Positions 780 to 3,334 of a DNA stretch of 32,000 nucleotides are shown piece by piece. The translations under genes were made by a program, and so were the position numbers. The notes below the pieces were generated by a model that worked only from the letters and a program-made list of their open reading frames with translations, did not search any database and was not told the origin of the DNA. The stretch is taken from assembly GCF_001457595.1 (NCBI RefSeq), contig NZ_LN831039.1:1920001-1952000 (forward strand), in the 5' to 3' direction. This DNA comes from Mycolicibacterium smegmatis (GTDB lineage Bacteria; Actinomycetota; Actinomycetes; Mycobacteriales; Mycobacteriaceae). The number at the start of each line of letters is the position of its first letter. The stretch's first letter is position 1.

Positions 780-805
780 ATGCCCGGTATTCCGGGTCCC
801 GAAAC
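780..805 (-). promoter_or_regulatory. SigF-type promoter (near consensus) for the CsbD-like gene
   Basis: The minus strand reads GTTT(805-802)-N16-GGGCAT(785-780), about 65 nt upstream of ATG 715. It has the same GGGCAT -10 variant as the chaB promoter at 31273. Confidence 0.6.
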
Positions 806-847: not shown

Positions 848-871
848 GTTTGCCGGTCCACCAGATGGGTA
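848..871 (+). promoter_or_regulatory. SigF-type promoter, exact consensus, now separated from its gene by the IS
   Basis: GTTT(848-851)-N15-GGGTA(867-871) points right toward RBS-like GAAAGGA (891-897). The IS begins immediately after. Confidence 0.65.
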
Positions 872-912
872 CCAAACGAGCCAGGTGATCGAAAGGACTC
901 TCAATGAAGAAG

Positions 913-2121
913 TCAAGCCGCCGCGATGTTTGGGGGTGATTCAGGTTGCCAGGTCCGGTTGTCGCGGATGAGGGCGTAGAGAACGTTGGTGCGCCGTCGT
1001 GCCAGGCAGATGGTGGCGGGGATCGGCCGCTTTCCTTCGTCTCGTTTGCGCTGGTAGTAGGCCTTGGAATCTGGGTCGCAGCGGATCGCGGTCAACGCCG
1101 ACATGTACATGGCTCGGCGCAGTCGGCGACTGTAGCGCTTGGGGGTGTGCAGTCGTTCGGTGCGCTTTCTGGAGTCTCGAGACACTGGTGCCAGGCCGGC
1201 CCAGGCCGCGAGTTGGTCAGCCGATCCGATCAGTGCGGGATCACCGACGGCAGCGAGGAGTTCGGCGCCGAGTCGAAATCCCATGCCGGGCATACTGGTG
1301 ATCACCTCGGCGAGTGGATGGCGGCGAAATCGGCCCTCGATGTCGGCGTCGGTGGTCTTGATGCGGTCATCGAGGGCAATCACCTCCCGTGCCAGATCAG
1401 CGACCAACCCGGCGGCCACCTCTTCGCCGGGCAGACGCACCGTCTGGGTTTTCACCGCGGCCACCGCAGCCCCCGCGATCGAGGCGGCGTTGCGCACACC
1501 GGCATCGGTCAAGACTTTGGTCAGCCGCGAAACACCGCTTTGCCGAATCGCTTTGGGACGCTGGTAGCGCGCCAGCAATACCACCCAGCCACGGTCTTGG
1601 CTCAGTTGGGCGGCTCGTTCCAGGGCCGGGCAGACCGCGACGAGTTGTTGGCGCAGCCGGTTTATTGTGCGGGTGCGGTCGGCCACGAGGTCGGCGCGAT
1701 GGCCGGTGAGCATCCGCAACTCGCTGATCAAGTCATCATTGGGATGCAGAACGGGCAAGTCCTGCCCGCGCATCCGCGACTGGTCGGCGATCACCCGTGC
1801 ATCTTTGGCGTCGGTTTTGGCCTCCCCACCGCGGTAGGTCGCCGAGGCCTGCCACACCGCCCGGCCGGCCAGGTACCGGACCGTTTTGCCAGCGTCGGCC
1901 AGCACCGTCAACAACAGGGCGGCATACACCGTGGTCAGGTCCACCGCCCACAACACTCGCTCGGCCAGCTCGTCGATTTCAGCCACGAGCTCTCGGATCG
2001 GTTGCTCATCGTTAACCAACCGGCGCGACAACACCACCTTCCCGCTGTCGTCGACCACACATACCCAGTGATGCTCTTTACCGACATCCACTCCAGCCCA
2101 CACCTGGCCCGCCGCCATCAC
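913..2121 (-). CDS. IS110-family (DEDD-type) transposase/recombinase, 402 aa
   Basis: N-terminal VWAGVDVGKEHHWVCVVDDSGK...AVDL...TDAKDA (DEDD/RuvC-like) and C-terminal ITSMPGMGFRLGAELLAAVGD...AGLAPVSRDS are typical of IS110/IS900/IS1110 transposases. Start is GTG 2121 or ATG 2118. Confidence 0.9.
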   Translation of the reverse strand: MMAAGQVWAGVDVGKEHHWVCVVDDSGKVVLSRRLVNDEQPIRELVAEIDELAERVLWAVDLTTVYAALLLTVLADAGKTVRYLAGRAVWQASATYRGGEAKTDAKDARVIADQSRMRGQDLPVLHPNDDLISELRMLTGHRADLVADRTRTINRLRQQLVAVCPALERAAQLSQDRGWVVLLARYQRPKAIRQSGVSRLTKVLTDAGVRNAASIAGAAVAAVKTQTVRLPGEEVAAGLVADLAREVIALDDRIKTTDADIEGRFRRHPLAEVITSMPGMGFRLGAELLAAVGDPALIGSADQLAAWAGLAPVSRDSRKRTERLHTPKRYSRRLRRAMYMSALTAIRCDPDSKAYYQRKRDEGKRPIPATICLARRRTNVLYALIRDNRTWQPESPPNIAAA

Positions 2122-2362
2122 ACCTCTTTTCGCTTGTCTGCCAACATGATCCCCAAGGACAACCCCGCCAGCATTTCCTTAAACAAGCGATCACATCGCA
2201 GATCTCAATCAGCGGCCAGAGAAGTCCAGGCAGGCCGGGCGGCCAGTCCTTTCAAGCCGCACCAAGGGGCCGGCAACACACACCACAGCCACACCCGACC
2301 CACCCGGGTCACAGCCCAACGTAACTGCCTCAACAACACGAAGAAACTGCAACTACGAACTT
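2122..2362 (-). ncRNA. Candidate bridge-RNA-encoding 5' arm of the IS110 element
   Basis: 241-nt non-coding segment upstream of the recombinase inside the IS. It contains an inverted 9/9 copy (AGTCCTTTC, 2245-2253) of the left flank GAAAGGACT (891-899) and a direct AAGGAC (2155-2160). The assignment rests on analogy to IS110-family bridge RNAs. No structure was computed. Confidence 0.3.
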
Positions 2363-2372
2363 AAGGACTCAC

Positions 2373-3041
2373 ATGCTCGCTATCGCCGCTGAAGGTGTCT
2401 ACCGTCCGCAAGAAGACTCGCAGTTGCTCATCGATGCGCTGGAACGCAGTGGCGAGGTACCCGGCCGCCGCGTTCTCGATCTGTGTACGGGAAGCGGGGT
2501 TGTGGCGATCGCCGCCGCACACCTGGGTGCCGAACACGTGACCGCGCTGGACATCTGCCCGCGTGCCGTGGAATACGCCACGGCCAACGCCGCGGCGGCA
2601 GCAGCCGACGTGGACGTGAAGCTCGGCACCTGGAACGAGGCGCTCAACTGGGAGCCCTTCGATCTGGTCGTGTGCAACCCGCCGTACGTGCCCACCAGTC
2701 CTGCGGTCGATCCCGGCAGCGTGGCGCCGTGGGCCGGGCCCGCGACCGCCTGGGACGGCGGCGCGGACGGACGTATGATCCTCGACCCGCTGTGCGACGT
2801 GGCGGGTGCGATGCTCGCCGAGGGCGGCTCTCTGTTCCTCGTGCAGTCGGAATTCTCGGGTGTCGAGGAGTCCCTGACCCGCCTGAGCTGGAGCGGTCTC
2901 AAGACCGAGGTCGTCGTCACGCAGTCGATCCCGTGGGGTCCCGTGGTGACCGCCCAGGCGGAATGGCTGCGCGAAACCGGCCGGCTGCACGATGGTCGCG
3001 ACGACGAGGTGCTGGTGGTCATCCGAGCGGACAAGCCATGA
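2373..3041 (+). CDS. HemK2/Mtq2/N6AMT1-like class I SAM-dependent methyltransferase (222 aa)
   Basis: Contains EGVYRPQEDSQLLIDAL, LDLCTGSGVV (SAM motif I) and VVCNPPYVP (NPPY motif). ATG 2373 follows AAGGACTC. Confidence 0.8.
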   Translation: MLAIAAEGVYRPQEDSQLLIDALERSGEVPGRRVLDLCTGSGVVAIAAAHLGAEHVTALDICPRAVEYATANAAAAAADVDVKLGTWNEALNWEPFDLVVCNPPYVPTSPAVDPGSVAPWAGPATAWDGGADGRMILDPLCDVAGAMLAEGGSLFLVQSEFSGVEESLTRLSWSGLKTEVVVTQSIPWGPVVTAQAEWLRETGRLHDGRDDEVLVVIRADKP

Positions 3042-3253
3042 CCGCGCAGCGCAGGACCGTACAGATCACCGACCGCGGCCCAATGCTGGTCGAAGGCCCG
3101 GTGTGCATCGAACTGCCCGACGGGTCGAAGGTCGAATCGGACCGGTTCATGGTCGCGGTGTGCACATGCCGCCGCTCCAAGACCTACCCGTTGTGCGACA
3201 CGAGCCACCGCAAGCGGGTGAGGCCGGACAAGACGGCCAGACAGACCGCGTGA
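3038..3253 (+). CDS. CDGSH-type iron-sulfur domain protein (71 aa)
   Basis: CTCRRSKTYPLCDTSH fits C-x-C-x2-S-x3-P-x-C-D-(G)-S-H, with T replacing G. ATG 3038 overlaps the methyltransferase stop (ATGA). Confidence 0.7.
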   Translation: MTAQRRTVQITDRGPMLVEGPVCIELPDGSKVESDRFMVAVCTCRRSKTYPLCDTSHRKRVRPDKTARQTA

Positions 3254-3270
3254 GCGGCAGCCACCGACAA

Positions 3271-3309
3271 ACGATTTCGCCCCCACCGTCACGGTGGGGG
3301 CGAAATCGT
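3271..3309. terminator. Bidirectional hairpin between convergent genes
   Basis: Perfect 18-bp stem ACGATTTCGCCCCCACCG / CGGTGGGGGCGAAATCGT with a 3-nt loop, between the stops at 3253 (+) and 3335 (-). Confidence 0.7.
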
Positions 3310-3334
3310 CTGTGAATGATGACAGTGCGCCGTG

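What the first reader, a model, noticed from the sequence alone, without database searches (positions are those of the whole stretch)
848..2375. IS110-family element inserted exactly between RBS and ATG, uncoupling a methyltransferase-CDGSH operon from its SigF-type promoter
The order read on the plus strand is as follows. First comes an exact SigF-type promoter (848-871), then GAAAGGA (891-897), then AAGGACTC (893-900). Next is 1462 bp of IS carrying a minus-strand transposase, then AAGGACTC (2363-2370), then AC, then ATG 2373. Removing one repeat copy plus the IS restores a conventional promoter-RBS-5 nt-ATG arrangement (GAAAGGACTCACATG). The IS therefore sits in the RBS-to-start window. As I recall, this is the classic site preference of the IS900/IS901/IS1110 subgroup (target resembling CATG-N4-6-CNCCTT on the other strand). 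One consequence is that SigF-driven transcription must now cross 1.47 kb antisense to the transposase before reaching the methyltransferase. The gene nonetheless keeps an RBS-like AAGGA supplied at the IS junction. This could simultaneously dampen transposase expression and alter stress control of the operon.
Basis: partly seen in the sequence, partly recalled or inferred. Interest (0 to 1): 0.65.

Follow-up and report, generated by a model that had tools for sequence, protein, structure and literature searches.

The report
IS110 element splitting a ribosome-binding site
A 1.47-kb mobile IS110-family insertion sequence has recombined into the ribosome-binding site of a SigF-controlled methyltransferase gene of Mycolicibacterium smegmatis, at a site that matches a guide ("bridge") RNA encoded by the element; it is an ordinary member of a known kind of element.

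Summary
Every motif is at the stated coordinates.

The insert is an IS110-family RNA-guided insertion sequence (897-2364, transposase on the minus strand). It occurs at six or more different sites in M. smegmatis genomes, including a second copy in the genome that matches this window.

The target gene is MSMEG_1771. Published data show it is strongly SigF-dependent from this GTTT-N15-GGGTA promoter.

Two corrections:
- The 8-bp AAGGACTC repeat is not a target duplication. It is a 2-nt crossover core (CC; GG on the plus strand) plus chance identity between the target flank and the element's end.
- The crossover lies inside the Shine-Dalgarno sequence, not between it and the ATG. An AAGGA is rebuilt at both junctions.

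In 21 of 22 independent insertions of this clade, the element sits in a Shine-Dalgarno sequence 5-11 nt before a start codon and antisense to the gene, as IS900 does. The left end encodes a bridge-RNA-like structure whose four guide segments match, and co-vary with, the target and the element ends.

Whether the operon is really uncoupled from SigF was not tested. Verdict: new member of a known kind, modest interest.

The parts
848..871 (+). SigF-type promoter of the methyltransferase gene (MSMEG_1771 orthologue): GTTT 848-851, 15-nt spacer, GGGTA 867-871
   Evidence: Sequence. PMC4694148 Table 1 lists MSMEG_1771 with GTTT-N15-GGGTA and strong sigF dependence. PMC5445863 gives the mc2155 promoter TCGGAAGGTTTG...GATGGGTAC with the same -35 and -10.
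889..896 (-). Right half of the target plus the left core copy. On the transposase strand this reads CC-TTTCGA. It is complementary to the proposed right target guide UUGAAAGG and is the promoter-side half of the original Shine-Dalgarno GAAAGGA.
   Evidence: RT co-varies with the guide in L027-L029 (CCTCTC with GAGAGG).
895..896 (.). Left copy of the 2-nt crossover core (GG on +, CC on the transposase strand)
   Evidence: These are the only junction positions identical in all elements. L031 differs at position 1 of TCCTT; L106, L044 and L049 differ at position 4; L027-29 differ at position 5.
897..2364 (-). The insertion sequence proper: 1468 bp, or 1470 bp with one core copy
   Evidence: Empty-site comparison. 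Junction alignment of about 30 related copies. Stand-alone contigs of about 1470 bp in many assemblies.
897..916 (-). Right end of the element: ...TTGACTTCTTCATTGAGAGT. It holds the -35-like TTGACT (916-911) and the left-donor sequence ATTGAGAGT.
   Evidence: After circularisation the junction reads TTGACT-N17-TAAGTT across the core.
904..939 (+). 11-codon ORF (MKKSSRRDVWG*) that now follows the host Shine-Dalgarno sequence at 6-nt spacing. It is in phase with the long antisense ORF but is stopped by TGA 937-939.
913..2118 (-). IS110-family DEDD/Tnp recombinase gene, 401 aa, with RBS AAAGAGG at 2129-2123
   Evidence: Pfam and NCBIfam. PDB homologues are the ISCro4 transposase (3.1e-14) and IS621 transposase (1.9e-11). 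Exact protein in GCA_019930745.1.
2165..2215 (-). Proposed donor-binding loop of the bridge RNA: stem CCGCUG/UGGCGG, LDG AUUGAGAUCU (2209-2200), hairpin GCGAU-GUG-AUCGC (2199-2187), RDG UUGUUUAAGG (2186-2177) plus handshake AA (2176-2175)
   Evidence: Complementarity to the element ends. RDG UUUAGGGA co-varies with RD TCCCTAAG in the Nocardia relatives. Column identity in this segment is 97%.
2226..2308 (-). Proposed target-binding loop of the bridge RNA: 18-bp basal stem, hypervariable LTG GGUGUGUGUU (2284-2275), hairpin (2274-2256), RTG UUGAAAGG (2255-2248) plus handshake AC (2247-2246)
   Evidence: RNAalifold on 16 relatives. Pair counts: 97.4% paired against 29-51% when slid. LTG-LT permutation test: no shuffle in 20,000 reached the observed match. 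RTG and handshake co-variation.
2358..2363 (-). -10-like TAAGTT at the left end. It becomes a full promoter only when joined to the right end.
   Evidence: By analogy with IS621 (PMC11208160).
2365..2366 (.). Right copy of the crossover core (GG on +)
   Evidence: As for 895-896
2366..2375 (-). Left half of the target (CATGTGAGT on the transposase strand, then the first core C, 2366). It comprises the spacer and start codon of the methyltransferase gene and matches the LTG at 8 of 10 positions (6 Watson-Crick, 2 wobble).
2363..2367 (+). Rebuilt Shine-Dalgarno AAGGA in front of ATG 2373: AA from the element, GG core, A from the target
   Evidence: Sequence and the junction model
2373..3253 (+). 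Target operon: methyltransferase (2373-3041, 222 aa, MSMEG_1771 orthologue, HemK2/MTQ2-type) and CDGSH protein (3038-3253, MSMEG_1772 orthologue)
   Evidence: Gene order matches MSMEG_1770-1775. MSMEG_1771 is 222 aa (PMC9679996).

Best explanation
Window 897-2364 is an active IS110-group insertion sequence of the IS900-like mycobacterial clade. It has recombined into the Shine-Dalgarno sequence of the MSMEG_1771 orthologue of Mycolicibacterium smegmatis.

Shown:
- It encodes a 401-aa DEDD/Tnp recombinase on the minus strand, with about 245 nt of non-coding left end upstream of the gene.
- The same element sits at six or more other sites in M. smegmatis genomes, and an empty site exists.
- Insertion adds 1470 bp.
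- The only sequence common to both junctions in all relatives is CC.
- 21 of 22 independent insertions lie in GAAAGGA-type ribosome-binding sites 5-11 nt before a start codon, always antisense to the gene.

Inferred from sequence and co-variation:
- The left end encodes a bridge RNA built like that of IS621.
- Its target loop carries a nearly invariant right guide UUGAAAGG, in effect a copy of the Shine-Dalgarno sequence, which pairs with CCTTTCGA.
- It also carries a hypervariable left guide (here GGUGUGUGUU) that matches the spacer and start-codon side of the target.
- Its donor loop matches the two ends of the element.
- 2-nt handshake guides match the opposite partner.

Inferred by analogy with IS621:
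- The element excises as a circle.
- The joined ends create the promoter TTGACT-N17-TAAGTT.
- The RNA-recombinase complex then exchanges strands at CC.

Consequences, shown by sequence only:
- The ribosome-binding site is split but an AAGGA is rebuilt on both sides.
- The SigF promoter now lies 1470 bp further from the ATG.
- Any SigF transcript must run antisense through the transposase gene.

Whether this lowers operon expression is not known.
For: Family. NCBI names a 95%-identical protein 'IS110 family RNA-guided transposase'.

Empty site.

Other sites of the same element (hypC, an amino-acid permease in the same genome CP082846.1, and three more).

Junction table. Site context, 21 of 22.

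Target-loop fold. Pair counts, 97.4% paired with 3 compensatory pairs.

LTG hypervariability: column identity 0.44 against 0.94-0.98 for neighbouring segments, and 15 distinct LTGs in 16 elements.

LTG against its own target scores 7.2 of 10, against 5.6 for other elements' targets. No shuffle in 20,000 reached this. L018 LTG CAUGGGUGUU matches its flank CATGGGTGTC; L049 AUCGGUGU matches ATCGGTGT.

Other co-variation:
- RTG GAGAGG with target CCTCTC at three sites.
- Handshake AC/AU with element end GT/AT.
- RDG UUUAGGGA with left end TCCCTAAG.

Mechanistic template: PMC11208160 and PMC11208158.

Promoter and gene identity.
Against: - No RNA or expression data, so the bridge RNA, its ends and the junction promoter are predictions.
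- No Rfam family matches the left end.
- Structural co-variation is thin because the relatives are close. Only 3 pairs have compensatory changes, and the covariation score is no better than shuffles.
- The donor-loop basal stem is weak. RNAalifold preferred a different fold for that region.
- The LDG match needs one skipped base.
- The LTG register shifts by 1 nt in some elements.
- In IS621, handshake pairing with the cognate target inhibits exchange. Here the target flank (GT) equals the donor flank.
- One M. smegmatis site (L106) is not next to a start codon and has a mismatch in the right target.
Confidence: 0.85

Rival explanations
1. The element inserted between an intact RBS and the ATG and generated or used an 8-bp AAGGACTC direct repeat that marks its ends.
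For: AAGGACTC flanks the insert and occurs only there in the window. Removing the insert plus one repeat gives the real empty site.
Against: Five other insertions of the same element have GGC, GTG, GCG, GTG and GTG instead of GAG before TCCTT, while the other junction is always GAGTCC(T/C)TTC. Junction positions 1, 4 and 5 of TCCTT differ between the two sides in some elements, so only CC is shared. GAG belongs to the element's right end. It co-varies with the RNA handshake guide.
Confidence: 0.03
2. Site choice is made by the protein alone, which recognises Shine-Dalgarno-like DNA. The left-end complementarities are coincidental or only regulate translation.
For: The right half of the target is nearly invariant (CCTTTC), as expected for protein recognition. 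No RNA has been detected experimentally for this element.
Against: Guide and DNA change together in four separate segments: LTG-LT (no shuffle in 20,000 matched it), RTG-RT, handshake-LD and RDG-RD. The recombinase is homologous to the IS621 and ISCro4 transposases, the two solved-structure matches. IS621 is the bridge-RNA recombinase of the papers read. It also passes the NCBIfam RNA-guided transposase model.
Confidence: 0.05
3. Consequence rival: the insertion is nearly neutral for the operon. SigF-driven transcripts read through the 1.47-kb element, and the rebuilt AAGGA lets the methyltransferase be translated, so SigF control is kept and only attenuated.
For: No significant terminator-like sites lie on the plus strand inside the element: 3 in the region on both strands, against 1.4 +/- 1.1 expected. 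AAGGA is kept at the same 5-nt spacing. The insertion is carried by several independent assemblies. The gene is dispensable in any case (deletion mutant made, PMC9679996).
Against: After the 11-codon ORF, about 1.4 kb of the transcript would be untranslated. This invites Rho-dependent polarity (general knowledge, not tested). Transcription also converges with the transposase gene. No outward-facing sigma-70-like promoter was found.
Confidence: 0.4
4. The segment is an immobile relic fixed at this locus.
For: Only one copy lies in the window.
Against: An empty site exists with an identical methyltransferase. Six or more different insertion sites carry 99-100% identical transposases, including a second copy in the same genome. 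The ORF is intact. A chimeric locus (L002/L101) shows recombination between two copies.
Confidence: 0.02

Closest known systems
IS900 of Mycobacterium avium subsp. paratuberculosis, and from memory its relatives IS901/IS902/IS1110
   Same: IS110 family; about 1.45 kb; no terminal inverted repeats; no target duplication. Inserts in one orientation into a ribosome-binding site and start-codon region (published motif CATGNNNNNNTCTCCTT, PMC8141618; Doran 1997, cited there). The transposase is antisense to the target gene. A long antisense 'hed'-like ORF spans the element.
   Different: Sequence identity to IS900 was not measured, because no IS900 sequence was available in the tools. The target here is GAAAGGA with a 5-nt spacer rather than TCTCCTT with 6 nt. 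The antisense ORF shows no sign of selection and is stopped at codon 12 after the host-supplied ATG.
IS621 of E. coli and its bridge RNA (Durrant 2024 PMC11208160; Hiraizumi 2024 PMC11208158)
   Same: IS110 group, with a long left end upstream of the recombinase gene. The recombinase is homologous (E 1.9e-11). The RNA has two loops, each with a stem, left guide, hairpin and right guide, plus 2-nt handshake guides. There is a 2-nt core. A promoter is rebuilt across the circle junction.
   Different: The core is CC, not CT. The right target guide is fixed on the Shine-Dalgarno sequence while the left guide is hypervariable among close relatives. The LTG covers only the first core base. The handshake guide can also pair with the cognate target. 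None of this was tested biochemically here.
IS1111-group elements and seekRNA (Siddiquee 2024, PMC11187229)
   Same: DEDD transposase, RNA-guided site choice, specific targets.
   Different: Those elements carry the RNA in the right end and have subterminal inverted repeats. Here the non-coding region is upstream of the gene (about 245 nt, against 16 nt downstream) and no terminal inverted repeat was found.

Membership tests
IS110 family (IS110 group) | DEDD (RuvC-like) N-terminal domain plus Tnp C-terminal domain | tested here: met
   PF01548 9e-50 and PF02371 2.8e-22. NF033542 at 242.6 bits, cut-off 140. PDB hits to the IS621 and ISCro4 transposases.
IS110 family (IS110 group) | No terminal inverted repeats and no target-site duplication beyond the shared core | tested here: met
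   No inverted pair joins the two ends. Only CC is common to both junctions across elements.
IS110 family (IS110 group) | Long non-coding left end upstream of the recombinase gene and a short right end (the opposite of the IS1111 group) | tested here: met
   Left end 2119-2364 (246 nt); right end 897-912 (16 nt).
IS110 family (IS110 group) | Mobility with sequence-specific insertion | tested here: met
   An empty site; six or more sites in M. smegmatis that share GTGNGT-CC-TTTC.
Bridge-RNA-guided recombination (IS621 type) | Left-end RNA with target- and donor-binding loops whose guides are complementary to the target and to the joined ends | tested here: met
   At the level of sequence and co-variation only.
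Bridge-RNA-guided recombination (IS621 type) | The RNA is expressed and bound by the recombinase; changing a guide retargets recombination | not testable with these tools
   Needs small-RNA sequencing and a recombination assay.
Bridge-RNA-guided recombination (IS621 type) | A circular intermediate that rebuilds a promoter across the core | tested here: inconclusive
   The joined ends would read TTGACT-N17-TAAGTT, and TTGACA in most relatives. The circle itself was not observed.
IS900-like subgroup | Orientation-specific insertion between or within the ribosome-binding site and start codon, with the transposase antisense to the target gene | tested here: met
   21 of 22 independent sites. Matches the published IS900 motif in kind.
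IS900-like subgroup | Close sequence relationship to the IS900 transposase | not tested
   No IS900 sequence could be retrieved. The closest named proteins are generic 'IS110 family transposase' entries from Mycobacteriaceae.
Mycobacterial SigF promoter | GTTT-N15-17-GGGTA upstream of a gene whose expression falls in a sigF mutant | tested here: met
   The motif is at 848-871. The orthologue MSMEG_1771 falls by log2 6.17/5.69 in a sigF deletion and carries this motif. SigF dependence in the IS-bearing strain was not tested.

The most novel reading that the evidence does not exclude
The IS900-like clade may be a natural library of retargeted bridge RNAs. One guide (UUGAAAGG) is frozen as a copy of the Shine-Dalgarno sequence. 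The other guide drifts rapidly and reads the spacer and start codon, so each variant picks its own set of genes but always lands antisense in a translation-initiation region. That geometry may itself be adaptive in two ways: host transcription would silence integrated copies by antisense collision, and the element rebuilds an AAGGA so the target gene stays translatable. In the library searched, no paper holds both 'IS900' and 'bridge RNA'.
Probability: 0.3. Interest if true: 0.55.

Novelty: new member of a known kind. Interest (0 to 1): 0.35.

Why it matters
For this genome, the finding records a strain polymorphism that probably alters expression of one of the most strongly SigF-dependent operons of M. 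smegmatis. It should be kept in mind when comparing SigF regulons between strains.

More generally, the mycobacterial IS900-like elements have been used for decades as diagnostic markers and are known to target translation-initiation signals. Bridge-RNA logic appears to explain that preference: a fixed guide that mimics the Shine-Dalgarno sequence and a naturally variable second guide. This gives a ready set of natural guide-target pairs for studying how bridge RNAs are reprogrammed in evolution.

None of this overturns current understanding.

Tried and rejected
1. An exact-protein look-up with the GTG start (402 aa) found nothing. The ATG start (401 aa) is the annotated product.
2. Rfam gave no hit at gathering score over the whole window. 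The only E-value hits on the left end were meaningless lncRNA and SRP matches.
3. A CT core, by analogy with IS621, was rejected in favour of CC. L106, L044 and L049 differ between the two junctions at the position after CC, and L031 differs at the position before it.
4. RNAalifold's fold of the 3' half pairs UCGCUUGUUU with AGACAAGCGA. It was not adopted for the donor loop because it buries the RDG. It may be an alternative mRNA-leader structure.
5. The hed-like antisense ORF was tested as a functional gene. It is in phase with the transposase codons, which is the expected artefact in GC-rich genes. In the non-coding left end all three antisense frames have only 0-4 stops, and the ORF end varies among relatives. 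There is therefore no evidence of selection.
6. A search for an outward-facing or internal sigma-70-like promoter found none. Terminator-like hits were not above chance.
7. A second copy in the window was sought and not found.
8. Direct comparison with IS900 was not possible.
Full report
**Observation.** The plus strand reads GTTT (848-851), 15 nt, GGGTA (867-871), GAAAGGA (891-897), AAGGACTC (893-900), then 1462 bp, AAGGACTC (2363-2370), AC, ATG (2373). AAGGACTC occurs nowhere else in the window, and the window holds no second copy of the insert. The minus-strand ORF 913-2118 encodes a 401-aa protein with DEDD_Tnp_IS110 (9e-50) and Transposase_20 (2.8e-22). It passes NCBIfam NF033542 'IS110 family RNA-guided transposase' (242.6 bits, cut-off 140). 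It is homologous to the solved ISCro4 and IS621 transposases (3.1e-14 and 1.9e-11). Downstream lie an MTS/HemK2-type methyltransferase (2373-3041) and a CDGSH protein (3038-3253). Upstream and divergent lies a CsbD-like gene.

**Empty site and mobility.** Looking up the exact methyltransferase protein returned contigs with and without the insert. The exact transposase is found in GCA_019930745.1 (CP082846.1), which is 100% identical to the window over 1590 bp. Transposases 99-100% identical to it sit at five or more further sites in M. smegmatis genomes:
- upstream of hypC;
- upstream of an amino-acid permease, in the same CP082846.1 genome;
- three other sites (L105, L106, L109).

One assembly (L002/L101) joins the methyltransferase flank to the permease-site flank across the element, so two copies have recombined there. 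Relatives with 72-89% protein identity occur in many Mycobacterium, Mycolicibacterium, Rhodococcus and Nocardia genomes. They often appear as stand-alone contigs of about 1470 bp with high coverage, which is typical of collapsed multicopy elements. The element is therefore mobile and multicopy.

**Element ends.** I aligned about 30 copies in transposase orientation. The upstream junction is always variable flank + (T)CCTT + AAGTTCGTAG. The downstream junction is ...CATTGAGAGTCCTTTC + variable flank. At the six M. smegmatis sites the three bases before TCCTT are GAG, GGC, GTG, GCG, GTG and GTG. The GAG seen in the window is therefore a coincidence with the element's own terminal GAG, not a duplication. 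The two junctions of single elements differ as follows:
- position 1 of TCCTT in L031;
- position 4 in L106, L044 and L049;
- position 5 in L027-29.

Only CC is always shared. On the plus strand this is GG at 895-896 and 2365-2366, and the element proper is 897-2364. The crossover thus lies inside the Shine-Dalgarno GAAAGGA. The promoter side keeps GAAAGG + A from the element. The gene side gets TTAA from the element + GG + ACTCACATG, which rebuilds AAGGA at the original 5-nt spacing.

**Site preference.** In 21 of 22 independent insertions (six in M. smegmatis, sixteen in relatives), an ATG, GTG or TTG lies 5-11 nt after AAGGA on the strand opposite the transposase and opens an ORF of 91 or more codons. 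This is the behaviour published for IS900: motif CATGNNNNNNTCTCCTT, one orientation, and an antisense 'hed' ORF (PMC8141618, which cites Doran 1997).

**Bridge RNA.** IS110-group elements encode a bridge RNA in the left end, with a target-binding and a donor-binding loop and 2-nt handshake guides (PMC11208160 and PMC11208158). An alignment of 16 left ends (A1) folds into a target loop of that architecture:
- an 18-bp basal stem;
- a 5' loop strand;
- a hairpin;
- a 3' loop strand, UUGAAAGGAC.

On this structure 97.4% of cells are paired, against 29-51% when the partner is slid, and three pairs carry compensatory changes. The support from structural co-variation is modest because the sequences are close.

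The guide evidence is stronger.
1. The 5' loop strand is hypervariable. Its column identity is 0.44, against 0.94-0.98 for neighbouring segments, and there are 15 different strings in 16 elements. Each element's string matches its own left flank better than other elements' flanks: 7.2 against 5.6 of 10, and none of 20,000 shuffles reached this, also with one site per distinct guide. Examples are L018 CAUGGGUGUU with CATGGGTGTC, and L049 AUCGGUGU with ATCGGTGT. In the window, GGUGUGUGUU matches CATGTGAGTC at 8 of 10 positions. The six M. smegmatis sites give the consensus GTGNGT-CC.
2. The right guide GAAAGG pairs with CCTTTC. The three L027-29 sites have GAGAGG with CCTCTC.
3. The two bases after the right guide (AC) pair with the element's own right end (GT). 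They read AU where the end is AT, in L030, L036 and L037. This is the handshake rule.
4. In the donor loop, AUUGAGAUCU repeats the right end ATTGAGA(G)TCC, and UUUAAGG pairs with CCTTAAG of the left end. The Nocardia relatives have UUUAGGGA with TCCCTAAG.

The joined ends would read TTGACT-N17-TAAGTT, and TTGACA in most relatives, which is the junction promoter expected for this family. No RNA, circle or recombination was observed. These steps are inferred.

**The target gene and promoter.** The gene order CsbD / methylase / CDGSH / haem-oxygenase-like / DUF4383 / P450 matches MSMEG_1770-1775. PMC4694148 Table 1 lists MSMEG_1771 ('methylase, putative') with GTTT-N15-GGGTA 29 nt from the start codon and log2 changes of -6.17/-5.69 in a sigF deletion. 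Its neighbours are also SigF-dependent. PMC5445863 prints the mc2155 promoter TCGGAAGGTTTGCGCGCCCGCGAGATGGGTAC. The window has TCGGAAGGTTTGCCGGTCCACCAGATGGGTAC, with the same -35 and -10. MSMEG_1771 is 222 aa, and a deletion mutant of it was constructed (PMC9679996). The SigF assignment is therefore well founded for the orthologue. From those papers, mc2155 has the uninterrupted arrangement.

**Consequences.** What the sequence shows is this:
- The promoter is now 1470 bp further from the ATG.
- The host Shine-Dalgarno sequence is followed after 6 nt by an ATG (904) that opens only an 11-codon ORF.
- The rest of the path to the gene is antisense to the transposase.
- No sigma-70-like promoter faces the gene, and terminator-like sites are not above chance.

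I could not determine whether the operon is silenced, attenuated or still SigF-controlled by read-through. I rate near-neutral read-through at about 0.4. The idea that antisense transcription dampens the transposase is plausible but untested. The same geometry holds for every insertion of the clade.

**Comparison and novelty.** The element is a member of the IS110 group. It behaves like IS900 and appears to work like IS621. Differences from IS621 are the CC core, a right guide fixed on the ribosome-binding site, and a rapidly diverging left guide. I found no paper in the searched library that holds both 'IS900' and 'bridge RNA', so the explicit link may be unpublished. It follows directly from known mechanisms, however. 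This is a new member of a known kind, of modest interest.

Noticed in passing
window 781-805 (minus strand): A second, divergent SigF-type promoter for the CsbD-like gene: GTTT (805-802), 16 nt, GGGCA (785-781). It matches the MSMEG_1770 entry in the published tables (GTTT-N16-GGGCA; GATCACGTTTCGG...CCGGGCAT). The two SigF promoters lie back to back, 42 nt apart.
   Followed up: partly
window 946-2364 (plus strand) and 904-939: A 472-codon antisense ORF spans the element in phase with the transposase codons, like IS900 'hed'. In seven relatives (L030-33, L035-37) the ATG just inside the right end opens it for 420-486 codons, 6 nt after the host ribosome-binding site. In the window it stops after 11 codons. 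Stop counts in the non-coding left end are no lower than in the other frames, so it looks like a GC-bias artefact.
   Followed up: yes
L002/L101 (GCA_039889265.1, JBDQEF010000001.1): A chimeric copy: the methyltransferase flank lies on one side and the luciferase-like flank of the amino-acid-permease site on the other. This implies an inversion or deletion by recombination between two copies, or a misassembly.
   Followed up: partly
L106 (CP027541.1, about 4.21 Mb): One insertion of the same element has CCCTTC instead of CCTTTC at the right target and no start codon nearby. It appears to be an off-target event that tolerated a mismatch next to the core.
   Followed up: no
L013, L014, L016: Three assemblies labelled as different species (Mycobacterium sp. 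WUMAC-067, M. nebraskense DSM 44803, M. gordonae DSM 44160) carry an identical element with identical flanks. In two of them it sits at the same contig coordinates (1699-7886). This suggests a shared plasmid or cross-contamination.
   Followed up: no
L021 (MAG labelled Kribbella sp.): An element with 84% protein identity to the mycobacterial one sits in a Kribbella metagenome bin. This indicates either horizontal transfer or a binning error.
   Followed up: no
window about 3270-3310: A long perfect palindrome (ACGATTTCGCCCCCACCG...CGGTGGGGGCGAAATCGT) lies between the convergent CDGSH gene and the haem-oxygenase-like gene. It is probably a bidirectional terminator, which would shield the element from read-through on the minus strand.
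   Followed up: no
window 2187-2199 (minus strand): The terminator scan flagged the hairpin GCGAUGUGAUCGC followed by UUGUUU. In my model this is the donor-loop hairpin plus the right donor guide. It could also act as an attenuator ahead of the transposase gene.
   Followed up: no
window 2246-2255 (minus strand): The right target guide GAAAGGA is itself a Shine-Dalgarno sequence, so the bridge RNA could in principle pair with the 3' end of 16S rRNA. This is from general knowledge and was not examined.
   Followed up: no
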